Position numbers and translations under genes: made by a program
In this document: one piece after another, positions 2,228 through 47,904 of the stretch
Layout of the letters: each line of letters starts with the position of its first letter
How positions within the stretch are numbered: the stretch's first letter is position 1
The notes under the pieces: model-generated
What the model was told of the DNA's origin: nothing
The model's input: the letters and a program-made list of their open reading frames with translations, nothing else
Database searches by the model: none
NCBI GenBank assembly: GCA_946222885.1
Contig: CAMIAK010000001.1
Span: 230,806 to 294,805 of the forward strand
Direction: 5' to 3'
Origin: an uncultured Nesterenkonia sp.
GTDB taxonomy: Bacteria; Actinomycetota; Actinomycetes; Actinomycetales; Micrococcaceae
DNA length: 64,000 nucleotides

Positions 2228-2250
2228 GTACCGGAGCGAACACCGACAGA

Positions 2251-2294: not shown

Positions 2295-2397
2295 TGTCCA
2301 AAACACGATTAGCCAGGTAGAATGAGAGCGGCCCCAGAGAGTGCTACCAACACTCACCAGGGCCTGACCCACTCACTTGAGATAGCAAGGAGGGGCT

Positions 2398-2931: not shown

Positions 2932-3127
2932 CCCAGGTCATACGGATCCCGCCATGATGACTCGGCCCGGCTGATCCTGTTTACCCACCCCGCAGGCACC
3001 CATGCGCTGCGGCTTTCGTGTGCCTAGGTGGCGTGAGGCCGGCCTCGCAAGGACACTAGTAGGTTCTCAGGAAGTCAACAGTCGCGACATCTCCTCCATG
3101 GCATCCTTAGCCGCAGGGGGTGGAGGC

Positions 3128-4243: not shown

Positions 4244-4340
4244 GCCCTGATTCTAAGGGATTCTGGGGGACATAATTCCGTAACTGGGGGACTGGAAGCG
4301 ATTCGACACCCTCGGATCGGCATTATTCCGGCCCTCATTC

Positions 4341-4363
4341 GGCGGAGCGTGTGGGATTCGAAC
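4341..4363. other. attP-like core: last ~23 nt of tRNA-Ser (GGCGGAGCGTGTGGGATTCGAAC) at the phage-phage junction of the tandem prophage
   Basis: Identity with the 3' end of the full tRNA-Ser at 47815..47837; identity with copy 2 ends exactly at 4363/47837, after which phage left-arm sequence begins. Confidence 0.6.
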
Positions 4364-5201: not shown

Positions 5202-5694
5202 CTTCCTCTGGTGACTTCAGTGTATCCCCGCCAGACGTCTCTTGCTTGACTTCCTTCATCCTGTCCGTGAAGCTTTCCCAATCGTTACCGGGTGCGCCTC
5301 CTCCAGTGTTCTCGAAGACAGTATCGAGAATGGTAGTCATCAGTTCGGAGATGAAGAATCGGTCATCAGGGGTGACGTTCCAGTCCCACGCTTTGCGCGC
5401 TGCTTCATCGGGCTCTGAGTTCTCGTCTAGCTGAGATGTGTACGGCTCCTCTGAGCTAAGCATTCCCAGCATAGTGATTCCAAGCCCGACCTCGTTGAGG
5501 TCTTTACTGTGGCATTTGTCTATGGCGTATTGGACTCTGCGCCACCATTCGGCCTTGATGTCAGCCTGTTTTCGGTTAGAGATCGAACGCCAGGCAATGG
5601 CGCCTGCCCCTGTGGCTGCTAGCAGGGTTGCTATCGCGGCACTGTATTCAGCCCACATGGGGCCGGACTCAACGACTATTTCAATGGTGCTCAT
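5185..5694 (-). CDS. membrane-anchored hypothetical protein (169 aa), lower GC
   Basis: Single TM segment (AAIATLLAATGAGAIAW); sits between the repressor and ImmA. Confidence 0.45.
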   Translation of the reverse strand: MSTIEIVVESGPMWAEYSAAIATLLAATGAGAIAWRSISNRKQADIKAEWWRRVQYAIDKCHSKDLNEVGLGITMLGMLSSEEPYTSQLDENSEPDEAARKAWDWNVTPDDRFFISELMTTILDTVFENTGGGAPGNDWESFTDRMKEVKQETSGGDTLKSPEEGDPHG

Positions 5695-6179
5695 GGGCTG
5701 TGCTCTATGTCGTCGGGCCCGATCTGACCGTGGTCGCCCTGGTGCAGACTGTCGTCTGCGGCTAGGTCGTAGTCGTCGGGGTCTTCTGTGGCCGCACTCC
5801 CTGCGGCCTGATTCATGGGGGCGGCGTCTCCACGATGCCCCACCTCCTCTCCGTGTCCCTGCTCTGCCGCCACGGCCCTAATCAGCTCCGTAAGTGCGTC
5901 CTGGGTGCGCTTCGAGAGGCGGTGAACCTCGGTCGGCGGCTCCCATGCACGGGGCTGGATCTCTTGGCCGTGGGTGAGCTTGTAGATCTCCTTGGCAGGC
6001 ACGCGCAGAGCCTTCGCGAGAGCGTTGATCGTCTCATCACCGGGGGTGTGATCCCCGTGGACGGTGCGACTCGCAGTGCTCTGAGACATTCCGGCGCGCT
6101 CGGCAAGGCGACGGATAGACGAGAGTCCCGCCTTCTCCATCAGCTCCTGCCACTGCTGCGGCGTCTGTCTACGTGCCAT
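5691..6179 (-). CDS. XRE-family HTH repressor (cI/ImmR-like)
   Basis: HTH_3 motif IRRLAERAGMSQSTASRTV; divergent from the cro-like gene; alternative TTG start at 6200. Confidence 0.75.
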   Translation of the reverse strand: MARRQTPQQWQELMEKAGLSSIRRLAERAGMSQSTASRTVHGDHTPGDETINALAKALRVPAKEIYKLTHGQEIQPRAWEPPTEVHRLSKRTQDALTELIRAVAAEQGHGEEVGHRGDAAPMNQAAGSAATEDPDDYDLAADDSLHQGDHGQIGPDDIEHSP

Positions 6180-6379
6180 GAGGACAACCTTCTGAGACAA
6201 GGGGAAGCAAGGGCAACACCGAGTGTAGACGTTGCGGTTACAAACTCAGCTCAGATTCCCCGTGAATGCCCACAATTCAGGCGTTTACGGATGGGTTGCG
6301 CCCTGTAATCGAAGCCGTGTACAGTGAGTCTTGCATCGCCGAACACGGCGGGGTAAGGTTTACACATCAGGAGGAATCA
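6180..6379. promoter_or_regulatory. divergent repressor/cro switch region (operators not resolved)
   Basis: ~200-bp intergenic region between the divergent HTH genes; contains a CCGTGT..ACACGG inverted repeat and recurring GTTTAC/GTTAC half-site-like motifs. Confidence 0.4.
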
Positions 6380-6815: not shown

Positions 6816-7289
6816 TCACTCCGCGAAGAACCCGCGAGGAGCAAACTCGGAGATGTTCCCTTTCTGCGTCTGGAACTGAACCCGCAGGCTGATTCTCAGC
6901 GGAGGCGGGATGTGCATCGGGGAGTCGGACTTCGGTTTTCTTCGCAGGTTAGCCAAGCTGATCTCCCAACGCTCTTGCTTAGTGATCGGTCGTCCCACGT
7001 GCAAGACATTGGGCGCCCCGCTCCCGACCGTCAACGTGACGATCGGATCAATCGCGGGGTCGTCAGAGTGGTTCAGCACAGCAAGCACGGACCGACTCGC
7101 GTCCCACTCGTATTCGAGCTTCACCACTGCATTCTCGGCACGTCTCTCAAACTCCGCGTTGCTGATCAGGACCGAGCGCCGCGTGTACCGGACAGCAAAA
7201 ACGGATACGACGAAGGCAGCCACGGCTATTCCAATGGCTATCCACTCACCTGGGGCGACATCGTTCAGGAACTGAAGCAGCTCTTCCAC
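6816..7289 (-). CDS. antisense-oriented membrane protein (157 aa), candidate superinfection-exclusion/lysogenic-conversion gene
   Basis: N-terminal TM (WIAIGIAVAAFVVSVFAV) plus a soluble domain; opposite orientation to the early operon; amino-acid composition looks genuine, unlike the overlapping Arg-rich 6633..7352 ORF. Confidence 0.55.
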   Translation of the reverse strand: MEELLQFLNDVAPGEWIAIGIAVAAFVVSVFAVRYTRRSVLISNAEFERRAENAVVKLEYEWDASRSVLAVLNHSDDPAIDPIVTLTVGSGAPNVLHVGRPITKQERWEISLANLRRKPKSDSPMHIPPPLRISLRVQFQTQKGNISEFAPRGFFAE

Positions 7290-21947: not shown

Positions 21948-22080
21948 CATTCCCCGTTATTCGTTGGCATTTGATTTCATTTGCCGCCATTAAATGACAC
22001 TTGCTAACAACCAAAACGCCGTGCTTGCCGTAGTTCCCTGAGATTCCGCTGATTATTCGTAACGCTGATATACTTGTCTC

Positions 22081-22635
22081 ATGAACAAGAGTTGCGAGTC
22101 GTGCGGTTTGGGGCTGTTGATTGCCAGGGCCGATGCCAGGTTCTGCTCGGTCTCCTGCAAGCAGAGGGCGTACCGGAAGCGCAAAAAACAAGAGACGGTC
22201 ATCCCGGCCGAAATGCGCAACCGGGATCGCTGGGTGCGCTGGATTCTAAAGGGGCGCGGTGGGCGGATGACCAAGATCCCCGTTCAGGTGTCAGGTCGCA
22301 ACGCTTCTTCAGTTGACCCCTCAACATGGTCTGATTTTCGGTCAGCCGCCGAGTCCAGCATTGGCCGGGGCATGGGGTTCATGCTTGGCGATGGCATTGG
22401 GTGCTTCGACTTGGACCACTGCTTTACTGACGGTGAGCTTGCGGATTGGGCGCAAGAGCGGCTTGACGCTGTAGAAGATCCGTTATTTGTGGAAGTCTCG
22501 CAGTCCGGCGAGGGGTTGCATATTTTCTGCTGGATGGACGAACAGCCGGCCAACGCTCGAAGGGCGCACCCTGGCGTCGAGGTTTATTCGCAGAAGCGCT
22601 TTATCGCCATGACGGGGGACCGCTATGGCGGATGA
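22081..22635 (+). CDS. Zn-ribbon plus Prim-Pol (archaeo-eukaryotic primase, PF09250-like) domain protein
   Basis: CESCG..CSVSC ribbon, then RWVRWIL..KIPV..DPSTWSDF.., GFMLGDGIGCFDLDHCF (DxD), SQSGEGLHIFCW (sGxGxH), VEVYSQKRFIAMTGD; lower-GC codon usage. Confidence 0.55.
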   Translation: MNKSCESCGLGLLIARADARFCSVSCKQRAYRKRKKQETVIPAEMRNRDRWVRWILKGRGGRMTKIPVQVSGRNASSVDPSTWSDFRSAAESSIGRGMGFMLGDGIGCFDLDHCFTDGELADWAQERLDAVEDPLFVEVSQSGEGLHIFCWMDEQPANARRAHPGVEVYSQKRFIAMTGDRYGG

Positions 22636-30885: not shown

Positions 30886-31078
30886 CGGATTCGTGACCGC
30901 CGTGAGCCCCAAGGGGCAGAAGCGGCGCGTCCCTCTCCACTACCTGGAGAACAAGGCTCTGGGGTACAAGCTGCCACCGAAGGCGCGTGCATCCCAGCAG
31001 AAGGCTCCCAAGGAGCCGGAGGAAAAGAAGCCCACCACCACCGGCTCTAAGGCCGAGACCAAGAAGGAGACCAAGTAA
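30872..31078 (+). CDS. small Lys/Pro-rich hypothetical protein
   Basis: 68-aa ORF between the terminator-like and major tail genes. Confidence 0.35.
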   Translation: MPTSDGFVTAVSPKGQKRRVPLHYLENKALGYKLPPKARASQQKAPKEPEEKKPTTTGSKAETKKETK

Positions 31079-31611
31079 TGCCACGCGTACTTGCTGACGG
31101 CCAGACCAAGCTGTCCATTCTCACCGAGAAGCCCGCCAACGTGGGCGCCCCGACTGCCGCCGAGCTCAACGCCGGCCATGACATGTCGTGCGCGATCCTC
31201 ACCAGCGACTTCGAGTTCACTGCTGCCGCGTCGGACATGCGCGACAACAAGACTCTGTGCCAGCGAGGTAATGCCCAGCGGCCCGGCGCGAGGAACCACA
31301 ACGCCGCGGCCACCATCTACCGCGAGTACCTCGAAGGCGGCGGACCGGACGAGGAGGACGCCGACAAGGGATTCCAGGCCGTAAAGGCCCAGGGCACCCA
31401 GGTCTGGGCCTACGGTCGCCTGACTGACAAGCGATCCTCGGAGGAATGGGCTGCCGGTGACGAGATCTACATGGGAGGCGAGTTCCTCACCGACACTCCG
31501 ACCCGCGGCGCACTGGACGATGACATTTCCTTCCGCGTCCAGTTCCTTCCCCAGGATGTCTACGACTTCATCGAGGTCGCATCCGATGGGTCCGGCGGCG
31601 GCGAGGCCTGA
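31078..31611 (+). CDS. major tail protein
   Basis: 177 aa immediately upstream of the chaperone gene pair and the tape measure gene. Confidence 0.6.
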   Translation: MPRVLADGQTKLSILTEKPANVGAPTAAELNAGHDMSCAILTSDFEFTAAASDMRDNKTLCQRGNAQRPGARNHNAAATIYREYLEGGGPDEEDADKGFQAVKAQGTQVWAYGRLTDKRSSEEWAAGDEIYMGGEFLTDTPTRGALDDDISFRVQFLPQDVYDFIEVASDGSGGGEA

Positions 31612-31708: not shown

Positions 31709-32308
31709 ATGACTGAGACCCCCGAGACCACTGCATCCCCCGAAGACTTCAACATCGATGACTGGCTGCAGGATGCACACCTGCCCGAGGATTCCTGCGA
31801 GATCTACAAGCGCCCTGACGTCATCTCAGAGCTGACCCGGATCAAGGCGCGTATCGAGGAAGAGGAAGCCGCAGACAGCGGCAAGACCCTCGGCGGCAAT
31901 CCCAAGGTCGGCGAGCTGCAGAAGCGATACGAGGAGCTGCTGGAGACCTTCGCCGACTCCCGAGCGACGGTCTATGTCCGCGCCGTCGCCGAGAAGACTC
32001 TCCGTGATCTGCGAGCCGAGCACGCCGTCGAGAAGGACGACTCGGCCAAGGTCAAGACGGAGAAGGCCACCGCACTGAGCTACGCGATCATGTCTCACGC
32101 CATCGTCGGCCTGGGAGGCAAGGACGGCACTCGGCACGAAGTCTCTCTGAGTCCGCAGCAGGTCGAAGTTCTTGAGTCCAAGATCGGTGACTCTCAGGGC
32201 AAGACGATCCTGGCGGCATGGAATCGTGCGCAGTCCCAGACTCCGGAGGTGACTGTAGATTTTTTGTCGCAGCCCTCTGGTATCAGCAAGGACGATACCA
32301 GCGACTGA
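31709..32308 (+). CDS. tail assembly chaperone (G-like product)
   Basis: Acidic 199-aa protein between the major tail and tape measure genes; contains a slippery site near its 3' end. Confidence 0.65.
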   Translation: MTETPETTASPEDFNIDDWLQDAHLPEDSCEIYKRPDVISELTRIKARIEEEEAADSGKTLGGNPKVGELQKRYEELLETFADSRATVYVRAVAEKTLRDLRAEHAVEKDDSAKVKTEKATALSYAIMSHAIVGLGGKDGTRHEVSLSPQQVEVLESKIGDSQGKTILAAWNRAQSQTPEVTVDFLSQPSGISKDDTSD

Positions 32309-32658
32309 TTCAGGTCCTTGAGACCGCCGAGAAGTATGGCCGCCCACCCTCTCACTGGCTGGGCGGCCTGGATGGTGAATGGGAGACCAAGGACCACATC
32401 CTCACCTTGGCCCTGACTGCCTATCGGGCCGGTCTGTGCTCCTGCGGAAACCCTGTCTCGGTGGCGCATCACCACGACAACGACGGCTGGTACGAGAAGC
32501 AGGTCTCTAAGTGCCACGCCTGCGCTGTCAGTGAGTCCCAAGAGGACGAGAAGCCCAAGCCTGGCGAGAAGGTCTACCCCGTGTACACCCGCCCTGATCA
32601 TCTGCACATCGGGGAGCGACCGGCACGGACTACTGAGCGCGCCGCCGCTCCTGAATAG
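32218..32658 (+). CDS. tail assembly chaperone -1 frame extension (T part of a G/GT-like fusion)
   Basis: ORF in the -1 frame overlapping the 3' end of the G-like gene; the fusion is reached by slippage at 32260-32266. Confidence 0.6.
   Translation: MESCAVPDSGGDCRFFVAALWYQQGRYQRLIQVLETAEKYGRPPSHWLGGLDGEWETKDHILTLALTAYRAGLCSCGNPVSVAHHHDNDGWYEKQVSKCHACAVSESQEDEKPKPGEKVYPVYTRPDHLHIGERPARTTERAAAPE
32260..32266 (+). other. programmed -1 frameshift slippery heptamer T_TTT_TTG
   Basis: X_XXY_YYZ heptamer in the 0 frame of the G-like gene (GAT TTT TTG); the -1 frame continues FFVAALWYQQGRYQ... Confidence 0.6.
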
Positions 32659-33016
32659 CGGCGTCAACGCCGCCGCGGTAACCCTGCTCGCGATAGTCGG
32701 GGCCTTGGGGCTCAGTCGGCTGTACTTCTGGTGCCGGTGGTGCCATGCGCTTCAAGAGGCTGATGACCTGCGCCATGAAGCCGTAGAGCAGTAGGAATAA
32801 ACCGAGGCCCACTAGGGACACGGTGAATATGACGCCACTGCTACCGTCGAGGAACTCAAGCGTGGCTACGACAAGGCTCAGCGTCAGAACGACGCCAAGG
32901 ACCGCTGACCCAGCCGAGAAAAGCCCGGCTCCTTCGATCTTTCGATTTCCCCTCATTTGGGCATTATCCCACATCCTCCGGAGGTGACCTATGGCTGATC
33001 GTCGCGTAAAAGTCAT
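32630..33016 (-). CDS. antisense 2-TM membrane protein (moron) between the chaperone and tape measure genes
   Basis: Hydrophobic helices LFSAGSAVLGVVLTLSLVVATL and VSLVGLGLFLLLYGF; lower GC; likely start at the internal Met (MWDNAQ/MRGNRK) because position 33016 overlaps the tape measure start. Confidence 0.45.
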   Translation of the reverse strand: MTFTRRSAIGHLRRMWDNAQMRGNRKIEGAGLFSAGSAVLGVVLTLSLVVATLEFLDGSSGVIFTVSLVGLGLFLLLYGFMAQVISLLKRMAPPAPEVQPTEPQGPDYREQGYRGGVDAAIQERRRAQ

Positions 33017-36000
33017 CCTGGAGGCCCAGGTAGCCGCCTACCAGCGAGGCATGGAGCAGGCAGCTAGTGCAACAGACAAGGCATCTGACTCGGCTGAGCG
33101 ACTGAGCGGGTCGGCTGGCAACCTGGATGATCTCGGTGCATCGGCGCAGAATATGGCGGCGGGCATGGACTCTGCCGGCGCCAGTGCCGCCTCTGCTGCT
33201 GGTGGACTCTCAGATGCCGGTGCTGCTGCTCAAGACGCCAGCGCCGGCATGCAGGACATTGGGTCTGCGGGACAGGATGCTTCCGCCAGCCTGGACTCCC
33301 TGGGCGCCTCCAATGCGAATGCCGCAGCGAGCTTCTCGGAGTCCAGTGCGGCACTGCATCGCCTGTCTGGTGGCATGGCCGGTATCTCAGCCGAGGCCCA
33401 GCAGGCAGGAAGTAGCCTCAACGGGGTTGGCGCGCAGTCCCAGGACGTGGCCGCTGCTATGTCGCAGGCCTCCGGATCAGCCCGTAACGCCGAAGCGGCA
33501 CTGGTGGGCGTGGGGGCGCAGTCCCAGAGCGCAGCATCCGGGATGTCCGCTGCCTCCGCGGCTGCTGCCGATGTGTCCGGCCAGATGTCCTCTCTCAATC
33601 GTGGCTTCCTGGAGACCGCCGGGAATATGGAGGGCGACTTCAACCGCGTGGCCGGCTCCCTCGCTGTGGTCGGTGGTGGGATTACCGCCGTCAATGGCTA
33701 CCTGGCCGCGACTGGCATCCAGTACAACACCCTCCAGCAGGTCAGCTCCAGAGCGATGGAGACCATGACCGGCTCCGCCTCCGCCGCGGCAGACCAGATG
33801 GAGCGCCTGCACGCCTTCGCTGATGAATCTCCCTTCTCTCGAGCCACCTGGATCGAGGCCCAGCAGCAGCTGATGGCTTTCGGCATGGAAGGCGAGCGGG
33901 TCATTCCCGTCATGGAGGGTATTCAGAACTCGGTGGCCGCCATCGGTGGCGGCGACCAGGAGATCATGCGCCTGGTGGACATCCTCGGCACTGTCGAGGG
34001 CCAAGGTCGCATGACCGGCACTGAGCTACAGCGCCTCGGCCAGATGGGCATCAATGCCGCCGAGCTTATCGGCTCAGCCATGGGCGTCTCCGGCAATGAG
34101 ATTCGCACACAGATCACCGCCGGTGCCCTCGACGCGGAGACGGCGATCACTGCCCTGACGGACGGAATGAACACACGGTTCGACGGTGCTGCCGAAGGCC
34201 TGCGGGACACCTTCACCGGTGCAGTTGACCGCATCCAGGCCCGTGTCCGCGATCTCGCCTCCGTCATGATGACTCCGCTGGTCGATCCCAACGGTGGCGG
34301 CTTCCTGATCGATGCCATGAACATGGCTGCAGACTTCGGCACTCAGCTCCTCGAGTTACCCCCGGTTGTCCTCCAAGTTGGCGGCGCTCTCAGTGGCCTG
34401 GCTGGTGCTGGAATGCTTGCTGGTGCCGGCTTCCTCGCGCTGGCGCCCCAGGTGTCCGCGGCCTATGACGCCTTCCAGCGCATGCGCGCTGCTCTTCCGG
34501 CACTCAACGTCTCCATGCGAACCCTCGCCGTCACAGCTGGTGTCGCCGTCGCCGCAGTTGCTGGGCTCGCGATCCTCAATCACATGGAAAACCAGCTTCG
34601 AGCTGGTGCCATGGGTGCTGAGGAGCTGGAGAACTCCTTGCGCAGAGCGGCCGAGGCTGGCGACGTATTCAACGGGCAGTTCGCTCACCTCGATGGCAGC
34701 GACCACATTGTGGGCTCGATGCTTCGTGCCCGAGAGGGAGTCGAGGATCTCAACGCGGCGTTCGAGTTGCTGAGCAACGGTGCTGCCGCCAATGTCGGCC
34801 CAGTGCTGGGTGGACTGCAGGCGAACATCTACGACCTGACCAGCGGCATTCCAGGCCTCGGGGCTGTCACCAAGTTCTTCGCTGCCGATATGGCCGATGC
34901 AGAAGAGGCCATCGCGCAAACTGACTCCGCCCTGGCTTCGATGGCGACTGGAGGGAATCTCGATGCTGCTATCGACAACATGTCTGCCTATGCAGACGGT
35001 CTCCGAGAGCAGGGCCATTCGGCGGACGAGATCATCGGAAAGTTCCCCGAGCTGGAAGCAGCGCTCTATGGCTATGCCGAAAGCCTTGGCGTATCCGTCA
35101 CAGAGGCAGAGATGGCCCGGTGGATGCTGGATGGCATTGCACCGAGTGCCGTTGAAGCTGCGGAGGGCATTGAGGGCCTGGCCGGCGGACTATCTGATGT
35201 CGGAAATTATGCCGCCGCCGCAGAAGCTGGCCTGAGCGACACAGGTACCGCTCTGACTGCGATTGCTGATTCCTCCTCGGAAGCGGCTTCTGCACTGAGT
35301 GAGATCGTGGACGCCTATACCCGCCTAGGTGTGATTCAGCTCGACGCCAGCGAGGCCCTGATGAGCTACAACGAGGCCCTGTGGGATCTCGACGCTGCCA
35401 TTGCTGAAAACGGCAACACTATGGACCGCAACACAGAGGCTGGGATCGCCAATCAGCGGGCCTTCCGTGATGTTGGTAAAGCTGCATGGGATCTCGCAGA
35501 GGCGAATCTCCAGGCGGGAGACTCAGCCGAGTCAGTGGCCGGCGGACTTCAGGGGACCTACGACAGCCTCTACGAGACTGCGACTGCCATGGGCTACACC
35601 TCCGATCAGGCGCATGAGTACGCAGCATCATTCATGCAGATTCCTGAGCACCACCGAACCGACGTCGAGGCCTTCTTCGAGGACTTCGCATCCGATGGCA
35701 TTGCAGCACTTGGCGTAAACCTGGAGAACATTCCAGAGATGAAGCGCGTCATCATTGATGTGGATGGCTCCAGCGTGCCCATGAACGTGGAGCTAACCCA
35801 AGCTGAAATCGACCAGATTCACGATAAAACCGTGGGTATTTACGCCAGTGATGACGGTACGGTCCTTGAAGTCCAGGGAGCTATCGACGGAATCACTGAC
35901 GGCGACGCTTTCGTGATGGTCGACGACGACGGCACTGTGCGTGAGGTGCAGGCGGAGATCATTGGTGTGCAGGACGGCCAGGCCACAGTGAGGGTGGATG

Positions 36001-36599
36001 ACGGCAACTCAGTCAATATCGTCCAGTGGGACATCGACAGCATTACTGATGGCTCATCTACAGTCCATGTCACAGACAGCGGCATCGCTGGCGTCGAGGG
36101 TCGTCTTAATTTCCTGGCTCGCACTCGTACGGCCCGCATTAATGTCGTGCAGAGCGCCTCATCTGTCGCAGGTGGGGTCTGGGATCGAGTTAGAACCCAA
36201 ATGGCCACCGGCGGAGCCGTCCGCGGGCCCGGCACGGGCACTTCAGATGACGTCCCCGCAATGCTCTCCAATGGAGAGCACGTCCTCACGGCCCGCGAAG
36301 TCCAGCTCATGGGCGGCCAGTCCGGTGTCTATAAATTCCGTTCCGAGCTGACTGGCGGACAGTCGAAGATGAGCACTGCTGTGGCGTCGGCTCGATCGAT
36401 GGTACCGGCCTATGCGGCTGGTGGCGCGGTGTCGCATCCGGGGATTGACTATGACCGGCTGGCGGCGACTCTGGGCCGCAATGTGGTCTTCAATTTCCAC
36501 ACTAATAACGCGGTCGCTGAGACTCCATCGGCTACTGCGAGCAAGTCTCTGGAGGCTATCGGCGCGGGCTTCTTGCCCTCGGAGGTGAATCATGTCTGA
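32991..36599 (+). CDS. tape measure protein
   Basis: 1202 aa, Ala/Gly/Ser-rich with periodic repeats; RBS GGAGGTGA; downstream of the chaperone frameshift pair. Confidence 0.9.
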   Translation: MADRRVKVILEAQVAAYQRGMEQAASATDKASDSAERLSGSAGNLDDLGASAQNMAAGMDSAGASAASAAGGLSDAGAAAQDASAGMQDIGSAGQDASASLDSLGASNANAAASFSESSAALHRLSGGMAGISAEAQQAGSSLNGVGAQSQDVAAAMSQASGSARNAEAALVGVGAQSQSAASGMSAASAAAADVSGQMSSLNRGFLETAGNMEGDFNRVAGSLAVVGGGITAVNGYLAATGIQYNTLQQVSSRAMETMTGSASAAADQMERLHAFADESPFSRATWIEAQQQLMAFGMEGERVIPVMEGIQNSVAAIGGGDQEIMRLVDILGTVEGQGRMTGTELQRLGQMGINAAELIGSAMGVSGNEIRTQITAGALDAETAITALTDGMNTRFDGAAEGLRDTFTGAVDRIQARVRDLASVMMTPLVDPNGGGFLIDAMNMAADFGTQLLELPPVVLQVGGALSGLAGAGMLAGAGFLALAPQVSAAYDAFQRMRAALPALNVSMRTLAVTAGVAVAAVAGLAILNHMENQLRAGAMGAEELENSLRRAAEAGDVFNGQFAHLDGSDHIVGSMLRAREGVEDLNAAFELLSNGAAANVGPVLGGLQANIYDLTSGIPGLGAVTKFFAADMADAEEAIAQTDSALASMATGGNLDAAIDNMSAYADGLREQGHSADEIIGKFPELEAALYGYAESLGVSVTEAEMARWMLDGIAPSAVEAAEGIEGLAGGLSDVGNYAAAAEAGLSDTGTALTAIADSSSEAASALSEIVDAYTRLGVIQLDASEALMSYNEALWDLDAAIAENGNTMDRNTEAGIANQRAFRDVGKAAWDLAEANLQAGDSAESVAGGLQGTYDSLYETATAMGYTSDQAHEYAASFMQIPEHHRTDVEAFFEDFASDGIAALGVNLENIPEMKRVIIDVDGSSVPMNVELTQAEIDQIHDKTVGIYASDDGTVLEVQGAIDGITDGDAFVMVDDDGTVREVQAEIIGVQDGQATVRVDDGNSVNIVQWDIDSITDGSSTVHVTDSGIAGVEGRLNFLARTRTARINVVQSASSVAGGVWDRVRTQMATGGAVRGPGTGTSDDVPAMLSNGEHVLTAREVQLMGGQSGVYKFRSELTGGQSKMSTAVASARSMVPAYAAGGAVSHPGIDYDRLAATLGRNVVFNFHTNNAVAETPSATASKSLEAIGAGFLPSEVNHV

Positions 36600-42483: not shown

Positions 42484-43224
42484 TTGGAGGATGCACATAT
42501 CACTGAGGACCACCTCCTCATCCACGAGCGCACGTATGCCGACACTGATGGTGAGGAGGTGGCCGACCTCCACGACATACCCCTGGCCGCAGTCGCCAGC
42601 TACTCCGAGCTGCTCGGCTACTCGAATGCGGTGGATGTGGTCTCGGCGATCACCGCAGCCAGCGGAGATGTGGAGGGTGCTATCGCGGAGCCGCTGATGG
42701 TGCTCACCTACCGGGAGCAGGCCAGGGAGCAAGCCGCCGCACAGGCGGTGCTGGATCACCCGGCTGTCCACCCGAGATCGCCCGCACTGGCGGGGGCGCT
42801 TGCCGCCTATGAGGCAATGTGCGAGATCAGTGGCACACGTGACCCAGCTGAATCTCTGCTGGTGCGGTGCCAGAAGGAGGCGCGTCGGAAGCTGGGCCTG
42901 CCCGACCCGGTCCAGCGGCCCTCTATCCAGCGAGGTCAGCACACCCTCTGTGACCCGGCACCCCACCTGGCCACCGAGGACCCGGCCTTCGGGGTCGAGG
43001 ATCGGCAGAGGCTCGCCGCAGTGCTCGCGTCGAAATGCAGCCCGGATGACCAGGACGAGGACGCGCCGCGCTGGCTGGATTTCATCCAAGCCAGGCGGGA
43101 GGCCTTCTGCCACTCTCTGACCGGCAGCATCGTGGACCCGCTGACACCAGCGGCACCCGAGCCGCAGGAGCAGCCGCTGACCATGGAGGCCCTACGGGAC
43201 CGCTACAGAAGCGAGGACGCATGA
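42484..43224 (+). CDS. hypothetical protein
   Basis: In-frame TTG 7 nt after AGGAGGG; the 42196 start in the track overlaps the tail gene. Confidence 0.45.
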   Translation: MEDAHITEDHLLIHERTYADTDGEEVADLHDIPLAAVASYSELLGYSNAVDVVSAITAASGDVEGAIAEPLMVLTYREQAREQAAAQAVLDHPAVHPRSPALAGALAAYEAMCEISGTRDPAESLLVRCQKEARRKLGLPDPVQRPSIQRGQHTLCDPAPHLATEDPAFGVEDRQRLAAVLASKCSPDDQDEDAPRWLDFIQARREAFCHSLTGSIVDPLTPAAPEPQEQPLTMEALRDRYRSEDA

Positions 43225-43661
43225 ATAAGCCACGCGCACCACTCGGGCTCGCATCGAAGGTCTGGGCATTCATCGAGGAACCGAAGTCGGTCACCCTCGT
43301 CCAAGCAGTCGGGGTCTACACCACCGCGATAATCTTCGGCGTGCTCTCATTCCTGCACCCGCCCCGGACCACGTCAGTGATCCTCGGTGACTTCCTGGTC
43401 ACCAGCATCTCTGCGCTGATGATCTTCGCCGGGGCGGTAGGTGTGGTCACTAGCGTTACTGGCTGGTGGTGGATCGAGAGACCCCTGGCCGTCGGATTCC
43501 TATCCGTCGCCGCGCTGATGTACCTCTACAGCGTCATCGAGGCCCAAGTACTCAGCGACGGAAACCGGTGGCTACAGATCGGGTTCGTCGTCATCGCCCT
43601 CGGAGGGCTCGCCGCCCGGTGGTTGAGAATCCGGAAAGCGAACTACGACCCCGTGACATAG
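43221..43661 (+). CDS. 4-TM membrane protein (holin/antiholin-like) heading the lysis cassette
   Basis: Four hydrophobic helices; upstream of the endolysin. Confidence 0.55.
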   Translation: MNKPRAPLGLASKVWAFIEEPKSVTLVQAVGVYTTAIIFGVLSFLHPPRTTSVILGDFLVTSISALMIFAGAVGVVTSVTGWWWIERPLAVGFLSVAALMYLYSVIEAQVLSDGNRWLQIGFVVIALGGLAARWLRIRKANYDPVT

Positions 43662-43671
43662 GAGGGCTCTC

Positions 43672-44001
43672 ATGGGGGACGAGAACCCTCTGATCTACCT
43701 ACTCGGCGGCGGATCACTATCGCTACTGATGGCAGCATTCATCAAAGGCGCGTGGGACTGGCTGAAAGGCCGACACGAGCGAGAAAGAGCCCAGTCTAAG
43801 GACCGCCGCGACACCATCACCACCTTGAAGCAGGAGGTCCGGGACGCTGAGGCTGAGGCCGACGAGGCTCGGGCAGAGTCCATCCGCCACCAGCGCCGAG
43901 CCAGCGTCCTCTGGGAGTACGCCTACCGGCTGAGGCGGCACACGATCAGCACCTACCAGGCTGACCCAGACAGCCTCCCGCCCTGGCCCGAAGACCACTG
44001 A
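43672..44001 (+). CDS. TM plus coiled-coil lysis-cassette protein (copy 2 of 198..527)
   Basis: Identical to copy 1. Confidence 0.5.
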   Translation: MGDENPLIYLLGGGSLSLLMAAFIKGAWDWLKGRHERERAQSKDRRDTITTLKQEVRDAEAEADEARAESIRHQRRASVLWEYAYRLRRHTISTYQADPDSLPPWPEDH

Positions 44002-44062
44002 CCACACCCACAACCCCCGCTCCACACAGACGGGGGTTTTCTCATGCCTGAAGGAGGCCCCC

Positions 44063-44221
44063 ATGGGGAAGCACCTGGTACACGACGACATCCCTATCGA
44101 GCTCGACGACGACGTGGATGTGTCCCTGCTCGACGCAGACCCGGACGACGAGGACAGCGGACTGGACCTGGAGAAAGTCTACGCCGATGAGCTGGCCGAC
44201 GCTGAGGAGGTGGAGGCATGA
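44063..44221 (+). CDS. small acidic protein (copy 2 of 589..747)
   Basis: Identical to copy 1. Confidence 0.4.
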   Translation: MGKHLVHDDIPIELDDDVDVSLLDADPDDEDSGLDLEKVYADELADAEEVEA

Positions 44222-45372
44222 GCACGATCATCTCCCGCGCCTCCTGGGGTGCTCGATTCCAGGACGGCTACGGTAATCGCCCGGTCGGATCGCTGGCTGT
44301 GTACGGGCATCACAGCGTGACCGGCCACAGCGGCCCGTCGGCCACCTTCGCTCAGGACTGCGCCGCCGTGCGCACCGTCGAAAGGGTAGGGCAACAGATC
44401 TACCGAGTCGGGATGAGCTACACCTTCCTGATCCCGCCGTCTGGTCGGATCTTCCAAGGTGTCAGCATCGGCCGCGTCTCGGCCCACACGATCAACCGGA
44501 ACACCGGTGGTGCCGGGATCTGCTTCATCGGCAATTACGAGCGCGAGTCCCTGACTGCCGCACAGATCGCGGCCACAGCATGGCTCCTGGACCATGGGCG
44601 GCGGCAGGGCTGGTGGACCACTGACCGGTTCACCGCCCTGCACCGTGACGTCTTCGCCACCGCCTGCCCCGGCAGGAACGCCGTCAGTCCGCTCCGGGCT
44701 GTCCGGGCGTCCAGCGGCTCCACCTCCACCACGGGCGCCGGCTCCACCACCAATAGCCTGACCGGCTTCCTCCGCGCCACTCGCGACACGGAGCTGCGTA
44801 GCGGCCCTCTGTCCACGCACAAGAAGGTCCGCGACGTGAAGGAGGGTGAGCTGCTGATCGGCTCCGGGCAGGATAGTCAGTGGTGGACTGGAGTCGGTGA
44901 CCTTTGGGTGCCGAAATCCGCAGTCGAGAAGCGCAAGCACGGCGGTTCCAGTGACGTCCTGCACCACGGGCAGTGGCCCGACCGGGACCTGCCGCTGGAC
45001 GCCAACCGGAGCCGTGAGTTCTTCCTCGCCTGGGAGGACCTCCTGCGCCGCACCGGCGACTGGAGCGACCGGGACGGCAGCGTGCACGCGGCGATCAAGC
45101 GGTGGCTCCGCGGTGCATGGAACCCCGCCGCCAACTCTGGCAAGGGCTACGGCGTCGGCTGGGGCAAGGAGATGACCGGCCAGTACGGGCGCGGCCTCAA
45201 GCGGGCACTACGCGACCGGGGCTTCTTCTCCGGCGACGTCTCCACCGGCGCATGGACCGACGAGCTCACCCGTGCGGAGAAGGCGTTCCTCAACGACCAG
45301 CGCCGCCACCTGGCACCCCAGCCGCCCTCGGCCACGACCCATACCCGCGCATTCTCAGGAAAGGTGCACTGA
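44218..45372 (+). CDS. endolysin: amidase_2/PGRP plus PG-binding domain (copy 2)
   Basis: Identical to 744..1898. Confidence 0.85.
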   Translation: MSTIISRASWGARFQDGYGNRPVGSLAVYGHHSVTGHSGPSATFAQDCAAVRTVERVGQQIYRVGMSYTFLIPPSGRIFQGVSIGRVSAHTINRNTGGAGICFIGNYERESLTAAQIAATAWLLDHGRRQGWWTTDRFTALHRDVFATACPGRNAVSPLRAVRASSGSTSTTGAGSTTNSLTGFLRATRDTELRSGPLSTHKKVRDVKEGELLIGSGQDSQWWTGVGDLWVPKSAVEKRKHGGSSDVLHHGQWPDRDLPLDANRSREFFLAWEDLLRRTGDWSDRDGSVHAAIKRWLRGAWNPAANSGKGYGVGWGKEMTGQYGRGLKRALRDRGFFSGDVSTGAWTDELTRAEKAFLNDQRRHLAPQPPSATTHTRAFSGKVH

Positions 45373-45374
45373 TC

Positions 45375-45701
45375 ATGGCAGGAACCCCCACACAGCAGGC
45401 CCACCCGTGGAAAGCAGCCCTACGAACCGCGGTGCAGACCTTCCTTCCCCTGATCCTGGGGCTGATGATCGCAGGCCCGGAGATCGTGGAAGCCTTCGCT
45501 GACGTGCCCACTGATGGTGCCGCGTGGGCCACCCTCGGCGGTGTAGCAGTCGGCCTGTCTGCCGTGGCCGGTGCGCTGGCACGAGTCGCCGCAATCCCCG
45601 CCGTAGAGAAGGTGCTGATCCGCCTGGGTCTCGGCACCGGGGTCGAGAAAGAAGACCCCTGGGAAGTCGTCGACAACCCGCCTGCACGCCCCGCAGAATA
45701 A
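45375..45701 (+). CDS. holin-like 2-TM protein (copy 2)
   Basis: Identical to 1901..2227. Confidence 0.6.
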   Translation: MAGTPTQQAHPWKAALRTAVQTFLPLILGLMIAGPEIVEAFADVPTDGAAWATLGGVAVGLSAVAGALARVAAIPAVEKVLIRLGLGTGVEKEDPWEVVDNPPARPAE

Positions 45702-45724
45702 GTACCGGAGCGAACACCGACAGA

Positions 45725-45768
45725 GCCGCCCCACCTTGCTTCGGCAGGGTGGGGCGGTTGCTTTTTTG
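45725..45768 (+). terminator. rho-independent terminator after lysis operon (copy 2)
   Basis: Identical to 2251..2294. Confidence 0.7.
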
Positions 45769-45871
45769 TGTCCAAAACACGATTAGCCAGGTAGAATGAG
45801 AGCGGCCCCAGAGAGTGCTACCAACACTCACCAGGGCCTGACCCACTCACTTGAGATAGCAAGGAGGGGCT

Positions 45872-46405
45872 ATGAAAAAGCCTACCCCGATCACATCCAT
45901 CCCCGAGTCCCAGGCCGAGATCGCTCGACTGCGGATTACACGCAACACGGACGTCTCGCCGCATGGTTGCTGGGAATGGAACAAGGCTCTCGACCGGTAT
46001 GGATACGGTCGATTCCGCATCACATTGGCTGGTCAAGTTCGCTCCTCCGGCGCCCACCGCATATCTTGGCTTGTCTTCCGTGGGGAAATACCTGACCCGC
46101 GCTTGCAGATTGACCATCTCTGCCGCAACCGTCGATGTGTGAATCCCGATCATCTGGAACTCGTCACGAACTATCAGAACTACGAGCGGGCAGCACCCTT
46201 CCCGGAATGGCAGTTCGGCGTTCGGGGCAGTCGTGGCCGCCCGCCTATCCGCACCAAGGAAAAATGTGCACACGGTCACCCATGGATCCCCGAGAACATC
46301 TATGTACGCGTGGATCGCAACGGATATGTCCACAAGACCTGCAAGCAGTGCAACCGCATTCGCAGCCTCGCGGCAAAGGTGAAGCGTCGGGCAAGCAGTG
46401 CCTAG
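45872..46405 (+). CDS. HNH endonuclease (HNH_3-type; copy 2)
   Basis: Identical to 2398..2931. Confidence 0.85.
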   Translation: MKKPTPITSIPESQAEIARLRITRNTDVSPHGCWEWNKALDRYGYGRFRITLAGQVRSSGAHRISWLVFRGEIPDPRLQIDHLCRNRRCVNPDHLELVTNYQNYERAAPFPEWQFGVRGSRGRPPIRTKEKCAHGHPWIPENIYVRVDRNGYVHKTCKQCNRIRSLAAKVKRRASSA

Positions 46406-46601
46406 CCCAGGTCATACGGATCCCGCCATGATGACTCGGCCCGGCTGATCCTGTTTACCCACCCCGCAGGCACCCATGCGCTGCGGCTTTCGTGTGCCTA
46501 GGTGGCGTGAGGCCGGCCTCGCAAGGACACTAGTAGGTTCTCAGGAAGTCAACAGTCGCGACATCTCCTCCATGGCATCCTTAGCCGCAGGGGGTGGAGG
46601 C

Positions 46602-47717
46602 CTACGATCCCAGCGCCCGCGCCGCGTACCCTGCCGCCTCGAACTGCGCATCCGGCATCAGGTGTCCGTACACATTCCTGGTCATTGTCTCGTCGTGTCC
46701 GAGGTGTGCGGCGAGCTTCCACGTCTCCATGCCGGCCGCCAGCATCAGTGACGCATGGGTATGCCTTAGCGCATACAGCGTTGGTTTCTTCGCCAGCTTG
46801 CCTGCTGTCCGAGCCTTCTCGGCAGCCCTGGAGAAAGCTCCAGACAGGGAGTCCTCTGACATCCAGTCGCCCCGAGCTCCGGGGAAGAGGCGTTCCTGGG
46901 ACTCCCTGCCCTCACATCGCCTCTTCAGCATCTGCACCGCCGACGGTGGTAGCCCAATCGACCGGCGGGACGCCCGGGACTTCACCGGGCCAAGATGCTC
47001 GCCCTTCTCGCGGTCCTGATTGATAGCGATTGTCACCCGGATTACCGGCTGCTTTTGGTCTAGCCAGCAGTCCCCGACAGTGAGGGCGCGCAGCTCAGCA
47101 GGCCGCATACCGGTGGCAAGCATGAGCGCTGCTGCATCCTGGTAGGGCTGCGGAATCCGGTCAATGATCGCTTGGGCTTCGGTTCTGGTGAGGAACTGGT
47201 GATGCTCGGCCTCGTCTGTGCGCTCCACAGGAGGGAGCATCCCTGCTTTCATCGGGTTTCCAGACCTCCAGCCGCGCTCCTCGGCGTGCAGGAAGATGCT
47301 GGATAGCCAGCCGCAGATGTTGTGGATGTACTTCGGGCTCAGCCCCTTCTTCTCCAGGGAGATCACGAAGCGGCGGCAATCGTCCTCGCTGACCGTGTCC
47401 ACCGGCCAAGACCCTAAAGTAGGACTGATGTGATTCTTGACGTAGGTCCGATAAGTCTGCACCGTGTAGGAGCGCGCTCGAAGCAGCTCCATCCTGTGCT
47501 CTGAGACCTGATTTACAGTCTTGGCGCGGGAAGACTGGCGTGCCAGTGCCTCGGCGGCGCGCTTACTGTCGCCGCCTACCTCCTCGATCAGTGACTTCCA
47601 GAGGTCTGCCTTCTCCCGGGTGGGCCATGTCTTGGATTTCTTGATGCCTTCTGGTGTGCGCCATACGACGCGGTATGTCGTCCCCCTGGGACGCTCGCGG
47701 ACTTCGATGCTAGCCAT
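46602..47717 (-). CDS. int: tyrosine integrase (copy 2)
   Basis: Identical to 3128..4243; adjacent to the complete tRNA-Ser. Confidence 0.9.
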   Translation of the reverse strand: MASIEVRERPRGTTYRVVWRTPEGIKKSKTWPTREKADLWKSLIEEVGGDSKRAAEALARQSSRAKTVNQVSEHRMELLRARSYTVQTYRTYVKNHISPTLGSWPVDTVSEDDCRRFVISLEKKGLSPKYIHNICGWLSSIFLHAEERGWRSGNPMKAGMLPPVERTDEAEHHQFLTRTEAQAIIDRIPQPYQDAAALMLATGMRPAELRALTVGDCWLDQKQPVIRVTIAINQDREKGEHLGPVKSRASRRSIGLPPSAVQMLKRRCEGRESQERLFPGARGDWMSEDSLSGAFSRAAEKARTAGKLAKKPTLYALRHTHASLMLAAGMETWKLAAHLGHDETMTRNVYGHLMPDAQFEAAGYAARALGS

Positions 47718-47813
47718 GCCCTGATTCTAAGGGATTCTGGGGGACATAATTCCGTAACTGGGGGACTGGAAGCGATTCGACACCCTCGGATCGGCATTAT
47801 TCCGGCCCTCATT

Positions 47814-47904
47814 CGGCGGAGCGTGTGGGATTCGAACCCACGGTGCAGGGTCACTGCACAACAGTTTTCAAGACTGTCACCTTCGGCCGCTCGGACAACG
47901 CTCC
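47814..47904 (-). tRNA. tRNA-Ser (anticodon TGA), type II with long variable arm; prophage attachment target
   Basis: Reverse complement GGAGCGT...TTGTGCAGTGACCCTGCAC...GGGTTCGAATCCCACACGCTCCGCC; anticodon loop CTTGAAA; 7-bp acceptor stem; GTTCGAATC T-loop. Confidence 0.85.
47815..47837. other. attR core (shared with the attP-like junction at 4341..4363)
   Basis: Copy-1/copy-2 identity ends at 47837; host tRNA body continues from 47838. Confidence 0.6.

What the first reader, a model, noticed from the sequence alone, without database searches (positions are those of the whole stretch)
32630..33016. Reverse-strand 2-TM membrane protein gene (moron) between the tail chaperone and tape measure genes
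The ~330-bp interval between the GT-like stop and the tape measure start is occupied, on the opposite strand, by an ORF with two strong hydrophobic helices and a Pro-rich tail. It has an SD-like GGAGG before an internal Met and lower GC than the flanking tail genes. Chaperone and tape measure genes are normally adjacent. Antisense insertions here are typically lysogeny-expressed morons (exclusion, conversion or defence).
Basis: partly seen in the sequence, partly recalled or inferred. Interest (0 to 1): 0.55.

Follow-up and report, generated by a model that had tools for sequence, protein, structure and literature searches.

The report
Antisense membrane-protein gene before tape measure
A temperate actinobacterial phage carries a small two-helix membrane-protein gene, with its own promoter, backwards between its tail chaperone and tape measure genes; most relatives have a gene of this kind at the same spot, and it probably blocks infection by rival phages, though that is untested.

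Summary
The ORF is real. The likely gene is 32630-32956 (minus strand, 108 aa), not the full 128-aa ORF. It fills the 332-bp gap between the G/GT tail chaperone stop (32658) and the tape measure start (32991).

The product has two strong hydrophobic helices with basic ends and a Pro-rich tail, and no detectable homologue in 5.8 billion proteins.

The start ATG is instead preceded by TGgGATAAT plus 6 nt, the layout of an extended -10 promoter giving a leaderless mRNA.

Among 63 related tail modules, 46 hold an antisense ORF in this gap, 45 of them membrane proteins and 42 small two-helix ones. Fourteen have the two genes abutting. Most of these ORFs show the same promoter layout. The largest family is under purifying selection (median dN/dS 0.25) and includes Arthrobacter phage Hum25 gp16, annotated "membrane protein".

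This is also the position of HK97 gene 15, the original moron, an inner-membrane superinfection-exclusion protein.

So the gene is an accessory transcription unit in a lineage-wide slot, not a one-off insertion. An exclusion function is inferred, not shown. It is a new member of a known kind, of moderate interest.

The parts
32630..32956 (-). Most likely coding sequence, 108 aa plus stop (TAG at 32632-32630): MRGNRKIEG...ERRRAQ
   Evidence: The ORF is listed. A 108-aa product (P0001) is called in public assemblies. Codon-position GC is 0.70/0.45/0.69. The sequence is identical in three independent samples.
32963..32971 (-). Extended -10 promoter-like element TGgGATAAT, 6 nt upstream of the ATG. 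It predicts a leaderless mRNA that starts at or next to 32956.
   Evidence: TGn-NANNNT-N6-ATG occurs only twice in the 64-kb window, and at 8 of 5,595 ATGs in 16 sequences. The same layout precedes most positional analogues. No -35 hexamer reaches the consensus scan threshold. Transcription itself is inferred.
32957..33016 (-). Open 5' extension of the ORF (20 codons), probably not translated. It runs antisense across the tape measure start.
   Evidence: No usable SD or -10 element precedes the ATGs at 33016 or 32974. The same 'TRRSA' extension appears in unrelated loci because the tape measure N-terminus is conserved.
32846..32929 (-). Helix 1 (residues 10-37), first transmembrane segment
   Evidence: Kyte-Doolittle means up to 2.3. 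AlphaFold2 helix H10-37.
32744..32836 (-). Helix 2 (residues 41-71), second transmembrane segment. A short acidic loop, EFLDGSSG, lies between the two helices.
   Evidence: Kyte-Doolittle means up to 2.3. AlphaFold2 helix H41-71.
32633..32743 (-). C-terminal tail (residues 72-108): a Pro-rich linker, then a predicted helix at 88-106. Inferred to be cytoplasmic by the positive-inside rule (KR follows helix 2; RGNRK is at the N-terminus).
   Evidence: Sequence. AlphaFold2 gives H88-106 at pLDDT of about 60-65. The topology is inferred.
32975..32984 (.). Palindrome CCTCCGGAGG. The plus-strand GGAGG (32980-32984) is the tape measure gene's Shine-Dalgarno.
   Evidence: Read directly from the sequence.
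31709..32658 (+). Tail assembly chaperone G (31709-32308) and the GT fusion frame ending at 32658. The -1 slippery heptamer T_TTT_TTG is at 32260-32266.
   Evidence: PHROG tail assembly chaperone matches. ORFs. Heptamer and frames.
32991..36599 (+). Tape measure protein gene (1202 aa). Its start diverges from the antisense gene's start across a 34-bp spacer.
   Evidence: PF20155 TMP_3 at E=9e-20 and tape measure PHROGs.
32630..32658 (.). 29-nt convergent overlap between the 3' ends of the GT frame and the antisense gene
   Evidence: Coordinates. Comparable overlaps occur in L004, Hum25 and Faja.

Best explanation
Shown:
- A 108-aa gene (32956 to 32630, minus strand) sits in the 332-bp gap between the tail chaperone GT stop and the tape measure start of a 43.5-kb temperate siphophage.
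- It encodes a helical-hairpin membrane protein: two hydrophobic helices, basic N-terminus, acidic loop, basic start to the tail.
- It is preceded by an extended -10 element placed 6 nt from the ATG.
- The same slot, orientation, protein architecture and promoter layout recur in most relatives of this tail module, although the protein sequences are often unrelated.

Inferred:
- Host RNA polymerase transcribes it as a leaderless mRNA, independently of and against the late tail operon. It is therefore made when late genes are silent, in the lysogen and perhaps early in infection.
- The protein inserts N-in/C-in into the cytoplasmic membrane.

Inferred by analogy only:
- It acts as a superinfection-exclusion factor. 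It would prevent incoming phages with a cognate tail and tape measure from opening the membrane channel for DNA entry, as HK97 gp15 does from the same genomic position.
- Its linkage to the tape measure gene keeps blocker and target together when tail modules recombine. T5 llp lies next to its receptor-binding protein gene in the same way.
For: A real gene:
- Coding-type codon-position GC.
- A two-segment hydrophobic profile found in only 2 of 209 comparable ORFs.
- Called as a 108-aa product in independent assemblies.

Own promoter and leaderless layout:
- TGgGATAAT-N6-ATG occurs twice in the window and at 0.14% of ATGs overall.
- 28 of 34 distinct antisense ORFs in this slot have NANNNT 5-8 nt before the ATG nearest the first helix, 20 of them with TGn.
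- The integrase gene of the same phage has TAGAAT-N6-ATG.

Lineage-wide slot:
- 46 of 63 loci are occupied and 14 are adjacent.
- Annotated examples are Hum25 gp16 and TripleJ gp17 ('membrane protein') and Faja gp18.
- The largest family has a median dN/dS of 0.25.
- The antisense proteins diverge faster than the flanking T and tape measure N-terminal sequences.

Temperate context:
- Integrase, repressor and ImmA in the window. Hum25 and Faja encode integrases. Five carriers are prophages in bacterial genomes.
- The lytic Amigo-type relative Molivia lacks the gene (PMC5513430).

Analogy:
- HK97 gene 15 lies between the tail chaperone and tape measure genes. Its product is an inner-membrane protein that blocks entry in a tail-dependent way (PMC3594210).
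- T5 Llp is encoded next to pb5, and cognate exclusion proteins lie next to receptor-binding protein genes in many siphophages (PMC9586334).
Against: - There are no expression data of any kind. The promoter is a sequence motif with no matching -35, and no terminator was found.
- The protein has no homologue. It matches no defence model, and no Pfam family above threshold.
- It is not detectably related to the other occupants of the slot (hhalign probability 1.1%). Evidence from those families therefore transfers only by position and architecture.
- HK97 gp15 has one transmembrane helix and is from a Gram-negative system.
- Occupancy in most relatives could equally mean a role in the phage's own cycle.
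- All copies of this gene are identical, so selection on this particular ORF cannot be measured.
Confidence: 0.5

Rival explanations
1. It has some other lysogen-expressed membrane function: an abortive-infection or toxin-like membrane protein, prophage stabilisation, or envelope or transport conversion. It would be expressed from the same independent promoter but would not block DNA entry.
For: The evidence for an independent, non-late transcription unit fits this equally well. Small hydrophobic hairpins are typical of membrane-depolarising effectors (general knowledge). The slot also holds quite different cargo in some relatives: a lipoprotein-like 128-aa ORF in L070, and a two-gene cassette in L021/L065. 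That is typical of a general accessory-gene site.
Against: There is no PADLOC or Pfam match. At 108 aa, or 58-108 aa across the slot, the proteins are larger than classic type I toxins. The persistent linkage to the tape measure start across much divergence is better explained by a tail-related target.
Confidence: 0.2
2. It has a lysis-related role, as a holin or antiholin-like two-helix protein.
For: There are weak matches to PF07332 (actinobacterial Holin-X): 17.8 and 16.7 bits for the window protein and 14.7 bits for Faja gp18. The architecture (two helices, inferred N-in/C-in, charged C-tail) resembles class II holins (general knowledge).
Against: All scores are below the 28.4-bit cut-off and cover only the hydrophobic hairpin. 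The gene is antisense to the late operon and about 11 kb from the lysis cassette. That cassette has its own 4-helix holin-like gene (43221-43661) upstream of the amidase endolysin at 44218-45372. Hum25 has an annotated holin next to its endolysin in addition to gp16.
Confidence: 0.08
3. The transcript matters more than the protein. Antisense transcription from this promoter into T and G, or promoter occlusion at the tape measure start, would tune or silence late tail-gene expression, and the ORF would be secondary.
For: The promoter lies in the 34-bp spacer directly opposite the tape measure ribosome-binding site. No terminator follows the gene, so transcription would run antisense into GT. 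The 3' ends overlap by 29 nt.
Against: The positional analogues are under purifying selection at the protein level (median dN/dS 0.25). They keep a two-helix architecture even when the sequences are unrelated. Neither would be needed for a purely RNA or transcriptional role.
Confidence: 0.07
4. It is not a gene. The gap would be a non-coding spacer, and the ORF a by-product of high GC content.
For: Long spurious ORFs are common in this 64.5%-GC window (273 ORFs of at least 80 aa). There is no homologue anywhere, and no variation among copies to test selection.
Against: The codon-position GC, the rare double hydrophobic profile, the promoter motif exactly at the caller's start codon, and the recurrence of same-architecture ORFs in the same gap in relatives all argue for a gene. 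Relatives without an ORF have no gap (28 bp or less).
Confidence: 0.05

Closest known systems
HK97 gene 15 moron (gp15, YebO-like inner-membrane superinfection-exclusion protein)
   Same: [quoted passage not shown] It is also a small inner-membrane protein and an independent transcription unit within the tail operon, absent from some close relatives (PMC3594210).
   Different: gp15 is described as having a single N-terminal membrane helix (my recollection of Cumby et al. 2012, cited), and it has its own terminator. I recall it being co-oriented with the tail genes; I did not check that here. The window gene is antisense, has two helices and no detectable terminator, shows no YebO or other Pfam match, and comes from an actinobacterial phage. 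Its function is untested.
Arthrobacter phage Hum25 gp16 / TripleJ gp17 ('membrane protein') and Faja gp18, with their metagenomic relatives
   Same: They share the slot (T stop to tape measure start), the antisense orientation, the two-helix hairpin with basic ends, and the TGn-NANNNT-N6-ATG layout. They occur in temperate phages with the same tail tube family.
   Different: There is no detectable sequence relationship: BLASTP finds nothing and hhalign gives 1-6% probability. Those proteins are 58-84 aa and lack the roughly 37-residue Pro-rich helical tail. None has a tested function.
T5 Llp and Cor-type exclusion lipoproteins encoded beside the receptor-binding protein gene; TP-J34 Ltp (targets the tape measure protein)
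   Same: The concept is shared: an exclusion gene kept next to the virion gene whose action it blocks (PMC9586334). The tape measure protein is a known exclusion target (Ltp, as described in PMC11480721).
   Different: Those are lipoproteins with a signal peptide and lipobox. The window protein has no cysteine at all. One relative, L070, does carry a lipoprotein-like ORF in the slot.
Class II holins / Pfam PF07332 Holin-X
   Same: Two transmembrane helices and a charged C-terminal tail. Weak profile matches.
   Different: The scores are below the gathering threshold. The gene is not in the lysis cassette and is antisense to the late genes.

Membership tests
Moron (Juhala/Hendrix sense; HK97 gene 15 archetype) | Lies between two genes that are adjacent in related phages | tested here: met
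   14 of 63 related loci have the T stop and tape measure start 28 bp or less apart. LuckyBarnes has none. However, 46 of 63 are occupied, so occupation is the commoner state here.
Moron (Juhala/Hendrix sense; HK97 gene 15 archetype) | Own promoter | tested here: met
   Met at sequence level only. TGgGATAAT lies 6 nt before the ATG. The motif is rare (2 per window; 0.14% of ATGs) and recurs in 28 of 34 analogues. No -35 match was found.
Moron (Juhala/Hendrix sense; HK97 gene 15 archetype) | Own terminator | tested here: not met
   No terminator-like site lies downstream on the minus strand. The fold of 32700-32540 is no better than shuffles, z = -1.0.
Moron (Juhala/Hendrix sense; HK97 gene 15 archetype) | Base composition differs from surrounding genes | tested here: not met
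   GC is 0.60-0.61, against 0.608, 0.612 and 0.622 for G, T and TMP.
Moron (Juhala/Hendrix sense; HK97 gene 15 archetype) | Expressed from the repressed prophage | not testable with these tools
   This needs lysogen RNA-seq or 5'-RACE.
HK97 gp15 / YebO-like exclusion proteins | Sequence similarity to gp15/YebO and a single N-terminal membrane helix | tested here: not met
   No YebO or related Pfam hit down to E=1. Two helices rather than one. gp15 itself was not aligned directly.
HK97 gp15 / YebO-like exclusion proteins | Blocks DNA entry in a tail- or tape-measure-dependent way | not testable with these tools
   This needs plating, DNA-entry and escape-mutant experiments.
Hum25 gp16-type antisense membrane proteins (largest family in the slot) | Sequence homology (MTQTG..KKRG..two helices..GKWRERPAGD) | tested here: not met
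   hhalign probability 1.1-1.6%. hmmsearch gives 6 bits, E=0.028 in a 33-sequence set.
Hum25 gp16-type antisense membrane proteins (largest family in the slot) | Slot, orientation, two-helix architecture, leaderless-type promoter | tested here: met
Pfam PF07332 Phage_holin_3_6 (Holin-X) | Profile score at or above the 28.4-bit gathering threshold | tested here: not met
   17.8 bits for the 128-aa form and 16.7 bits for the 108-aa form.
Pfam PF07332 Phage_holin_3_6 (Holin-X) | Encoded with the endolysin in the lysis cassette | tested here: not met
   The endolysin is at 44218-45372, with a 4-helix candidate at 43221-43661. The antisense gene is about 11 kb away on the other strand.
Ltp/Llp/Cor-type exclusion lipoproteins | Signal peptide with a lipobox cysteine | tested here: not met
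   The 108-aa sequence contains no cysteine.
Known anti-phage defence proteins (PADLOC-DB 2.0) | Match to any defence-system model | tested here: not met
   No family at E of 1 or less for the window protein or three positional analogues.

The most novel reading that the evidence does not exclude
The T-to-tape-measure gap of this actinobacterial siphophage lineage is a dedicated slot for fast-evolving, leaderless, antisense two-helix membrane proteins. Each would be a cognate lock for the neighbouring tape measure protein: a membrane blocker that co-evolves with, and recombines together with, the protein that opens the host membrane for DNA entry. The unrelated sequences, including this orphan, would then be the product of an arms race or of repeated replacement within one functional class.
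Probability: 0.3. Interest if true: 0.6.

Novelty: new member of a known kind. Interest (0 to 1): 0.4.

Why it matters
If the inference holds, this gene is an actinobacterial counterpart of the HK97 gp15 type of exclusion. It would mark a predictable place to find such genes in Arthrobacter, Glutamicibacter, Nocardioides and related prophages.

Culturable phages with analogues exist (Hum25, Pitbull, TripleJ, Faja, Hestia on Arthrobacter globiformis B-2979), so the idea can be tested directly.

There are two practical gains. The slot and its TGn-NANNNT-N6-ATG signature give annotators a rule for calling these small genes and their starts; Pitbull's copy is unannotated and Hum25's start may be set too far downstream. 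It is also a reminder that GGAGG next to a divergent gene pair can belong to the other strand.

As a single orphan ORF with no functional data, the finding is otherwise fairly ordinary.

Tried and rejected
Searches that found nothing:
- Homologues of the protein: the word-indexed search of 5.8 billion proteins, exhaustive phmmer against 1.84 billion representatives and tblastn against 50,697 phage genomes returned only the protein itself or nothing.
- PHROGs, Pfam and PADLOC: nothing above threshold.
- Megablast of the region against phage genomes.
- Single-protein scans for related loci with the tail tube protein. An 8-sequence alignment was too diverse to seed a scan. A 4-sequence alignment worked.
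- Literature searches for a description of a reverse gene between chaperone and tape measure genes in actinobacteriophages. I found only the Cluster O HNH insertion at that junction.

Analyses that gave no usable signal:
- AlphaFold2 on the single sequence gave a helical hairpin plus a C-terminal helix (pLDDT 72). Foldseek against BFVD gave no match at E of 0.001 or less.
- BLASTP and profile comparisons with the positional analogues were not significant for the window protein.
- The consensus promoter/terminator scan found no full sigma-70 site and no terminator for the gene. Folding of the 3' region was not significant.
- Variation among copies for a selection test: all four copies are identical.

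Rejected:
- The 128-aa and 114-aa starts.
- The plus-strand ORFs 32531-32794 and 32823-32987. They have wrong or interrupted frames and poor codon-position GC.
- My first automated junction survey. It misplaced T stops in several loci and was replaced by a homology-anchored one.
Full report
**Context**

The window holds a 43,474-bp temperate siphophage in high-GC actinobacterial DNA.
- The tail tube gene (31078-31611, PF25595), tail assembly chaperone G (31709-32308) and tape measure gene (32991-36599, PF20155) are identified by Pfam and PHROGs.
- G has a canonical -1 slippery heptamer T_TTT_TTG at 32260-32266.
- A tyrosine integrase (46602-47717, minus), an HTH repressor (5691-6200, minus) and an ImmA-like peptidase (4509-4982, minus) show the phage is temperate.
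- The lysis cassette lies far from the finding: a 4-helix holin-like protein at 43221-43661 and an amidase endolysin at 44218-45372.
- The same phage occurs, 100% identical across this region, in contigs from three independent samples.

**The observation**

A minus-strand ORF spans 32630..33016 (128 aa).
- It fills the 332-bp gap between the GT stop and the tape measure ATG, and overlaps the T frame by 29 nt at its 3' end.
- Codon-position GC from the ATG at 32956 is 0.70/0.45/0.69, the pattern of the neighbouring genes. No plus-strand frame stays open across the gap.
- The product has two hydrophobic segments with 19-residue Kyte-Doolittle means up to 2.3.
- Among 209 ORFs of 80-200 aa in all six frames of the window, only this one and one Cys-rich, compositionally non-coding ORF have two such segments.
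- AlphaFold2 on the single sequence predicts helices at 10-37, 41-71 and 88-106 (mean pLDDT 72).
- The basic residues sit at the N-terminus (RGNRK) and just after helix 2 (KR), and the loop (EFLDGSSG) is acidic. By the positive-inside rule this gives an N-in/C-in hairpin with a roughly 37-residue cytoplasmic tail. The topology is inferred.

- GGAGG on the minus strand is half of the palindrome CCTCCGGAGG (32975-32984). Its plus-strand half is the tape measure Shine-Dalgarno, 6 nt before that gene's ATG. On the minus strand it touches the ATG at 32974 and is 18 nt from the ATG at 32956.
- GC content (0.60-0.61) is not lower than that of G, T or the tape measure gene (0.608-0.622).

**Start and promoter**

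Gene callers in public assemblies start the protein at the ATG at 32956, giving 108 aa.
- That ATG is preceded by TGgGATAAT and then 6 nt. This is an extended -10 element at the distance expected if transcription begins at the A of the ATG. Leaderless mRNAs of this kind are common in actinobacteria (established knowledge).
- TGn-NANNNT-N6-ATG occurs only twice in the 64-kb window on both strands, and both sites are at the start of an ORF.
- The motif is found at 8 of 5,595 ATG trinucleotides across 16 sequences.
- The integrase gene of this phage has TAGAAT-N6-ATG at its start.
- The strict sigma-70 scan finds no -35/-10 pair and no terminator for the gene. The 3' region does not fold better than shuffles.
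- The 20 codons upstream of 32956 are the antisense reading of the conserved tape measure N-terminus (MADRRV...). The same 'TRRSA' extension appears in unrelated loci for that reason, so I do not count them as part of the gene.

**Relatives**

The protein itself is an orphan. Only itself is found in 5.8 billion clustered proteins and in an exhaustive phmmer scan of 1.84 billion representatives. Nothing is found by tblastn in phage genomes.

The position, however, is not unique. Examples found first:
- A contig whose chaperone is 50% identical (L004) has a 95-aa antisense two-helix ORF in the same gap.
- Arthrobacter phage Hum25 has gp16, annotated 'membrane protein'. Pitbull has the same ORF unannotated.
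- Faja, TripleJ and Hestia have gp18, gp17 ('membrane protein') and gp18 respectively.

I then fetched loci using an alignment of tail tube proteins: 14 prophage loci from bacterial genomes and 80 IMG/VR loci. I located the T stop and tape measure start in each by homology. Of 63 loci where both could be placed:

| Junction state | Loci |
|---|---|
| Gap of 141 bp or more with an antisense ORF | 46 |
| of which the ORF is a membrane protein | 45 |
| of which it is a small two-helix protein (58-108 aa) | 42 |
| Genes 28 bp or less apart | 14 |
| Large gap, no antisense ORF | 3 |

- The three other membrane-protein occupants are L070, a lipoprotein-like 128-aa ORF, and L021/L065, a cassette of a single-helix protein plus a DUF4177-like ORF. 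L085 holds an ORF with no hydrophobic segment.
- This sample is redundant in places. It is also biased towards loci that my queries could anchor.

**What the analogues show**

- Of 34 distinct antisense ORFs evaluated, 28 have NANNNT 5-8 nt (mostly 6) before the ATG nearest the first helix, 20 of them with TGn. Many also have a TTtAgA-like -35 about 16 nt upstream.
- The proteins fall into one large family (22 of 33 trimmed sequences; consensus MTQTG..KKRG..two helices..GKWRERPAGD). There is also a Faja-type family that is probably distantly related to it (hhalign 65-84%), and several singletons including the window protein (hhalign 1.1%).
- In the large family, dN/dS is below 1 in all 26 usable pairs, with a median of 0.25. 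These are therefore real protein-coding genes.
- The proteins diverge faster than their neighbours. Where the adjacent T domains are 75-90% identical, the antisense proteins average 48% and the tape measure N-termini 59%.
- Carriers are temperate or integrated. Hum25 and Faja encode integrases, and L021, L024, L025, L026 and L030 lie in bacterial genomes.
- Other prophages lack the gene (L018, L019, L022, L023, L027-L029), so it is dispensable.
- The lytic Amigo-type relative Molivia has no such ORF (PMC5513430).

**Interpretation**

What is shown is a real gene for a small helical-hairpin membrane protein, with a promoter-like element of its own. It is antisense to the late tail operon and occupies a slot that this phage lineage usually fills with a gene of the same architecture.

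What is inferred is that it is transcribed by host RNA polymerase when late genes are off.

What rests on analogy alone is the function.
[quoted passage not shown] Its product inserts in the inner membrane and blocks superinfection in a way that depends on the incoming phage's tail region (PMC3594210).
- Exclusion genes are often kept next to the virion gene they counteract. T5 llp lies next to pb5, and cognate exclusion proteins lie beside receptor-binding protein genes (PMC9586334).
- The tape measure protein is a known exclusion target (Ltp, as summarised in PMC11480721).
- I therefore favour a membrane-level block of tape-measure-mediated DNA entry. I put this at about 0.35-0.4 for that specific function, and about 0.85 that the ORF is a genuine membrane-protein gene.

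**Rivals**

- Another lysogen-expressed membrane function, such as a toxin or abortive-infection effector or envelope conversion, fits the same anatomy. It is favoured by the varied cargo seen in a few relatives.
- A holin-type role is suggested only by sub-threshold PF07332 matches (16.7-17.8 bits against a 28.4-bit cut-off). The location and orientation argue against it, as does a separate lysis cassette.
- A purely transcriptional or antisense-RNA role is hard to reconcile with protein-level purifying selection in the analogues.
- 'Not a gene' is unlikely given composition, hydrophobic profile, promoter placement and recurrence.

**Comparison and novelty**

The gene works like, and sits like, the HK97 gp15 moron. 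It is not a member of that family, which has a YebO-like sequence and a single helix. It is also not a member of the Holin-X, Ltp/Llp or PADLOC families.

It meets two of four testable moron criteria: placement between genes that are adjacent elsewhere, and its own promoter. It fails the other two: its own terminator, and deviant composition.

Positional analogues are already annotated as 'membrane protein' in SEA-PHAGES genomes. My literature searches found no description of the slot as such.

I rate it a new member of a known kind. The comparative result (a lineage-wide, leaderless, antisense two-helix gene slot before the tape measure gene) is the more interesting by-product, and it can be tested in culturable Arthrobacter phages.

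Noticed in passing
window 1-4363 and 43475-47837; tRNA at 47815-47904: The first 4,363 bases are 100% identical to 43475-47837 (offset 43,474 bp). They carry the lysis genes, an HNH gene and the integrase, and end in the att core ...GGGATTCGAAC. After the second copy come the rest of a tRNA-Ser(tga) gene and host DNA at about 70% GC; after the first copy comes the phage immunity region. This is either a tandem prophage or an assembly that joined the circular (attP) form to the integrated form.
   Followed up: partly
window 22066-22635 (+): This is the only other TGn-NANNNT-N6-ATG site in the window: TGATATACT-N6-ATG at 22081. It starts a 184-aa ORF just upstream of the HNH and terminase genes. 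It may be a leaderless start at the head of the late region.
   Followed up: no
window 46602-47717 (-) and 6816-7289 (-): The integrase start has TAGAAT-N6-ATG. A 157-aa single-helix membrane ORF beside the immunity genes has TAGGGT-N6-GTG. Both have leaderless-type layouts, and the second is another candidate lysogen-expressed membrane protein.
   Followed up: no
L011 4915-5130 (-) (Arthrobacter phage Pitbull, PQ184828.1 8960-9172); L009 6415-6630 (-): Pitbull has an unannotated 71-aa ORF that is 97% identical to Hum25 gp16, in the 217-bp gap before its tape measure gene. Hum25 gp16 is annotated from a downstream ATG (56 aa), but the promoter-like motif sits before the upstream ATG (71 aa).
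   Followed up: partly
L070 7680-8066 (-); L021/L065 7646-8256 (-): Some relatives carry different antisense cargo in the same slot. One is a 128-aa ORF with a lipoprotein-like N-terminus (MIKRGFTLAIGASLALTVTGCGG...). Another is a two-gene cassette of a weak DUF4177-like 64-aa ORF plus a 139-aa single-helix protein.
   Followed up: no
L003 5608-5943 (-): A relative whose chaperone is 76% identical has an antisense 111-aa, non-membrane ORF between the tail tube and chaperone genes, one junction upstream of the slot studied here. The contig ends before the tape measure junction.
   Followed up: no
L085 7657-7812 (-): This locus has a 188-bp gap at the junction, but its antisense ORF has no hydrophobic segment. 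It may be a frameshifted or decayed copy of the L026-type gene.
   Followed up: no
window 32658-32673: A GC-rich hairpin, GCGGCG-TCAA-CGCCGC, begins at the last base of the GT stop codon and has no T-run after it. It lies inside the 3' part of the antisense gene. Its significance is unknown.
   Followed up: no
window 44063-44221 (+): A 52-aa, extremely acidic ORF (MGKHLVHDDIPIELDDDVDV...) lies directly upstream of, and overlaps the start of, the amidase endolysin gene.
   Followed up: no
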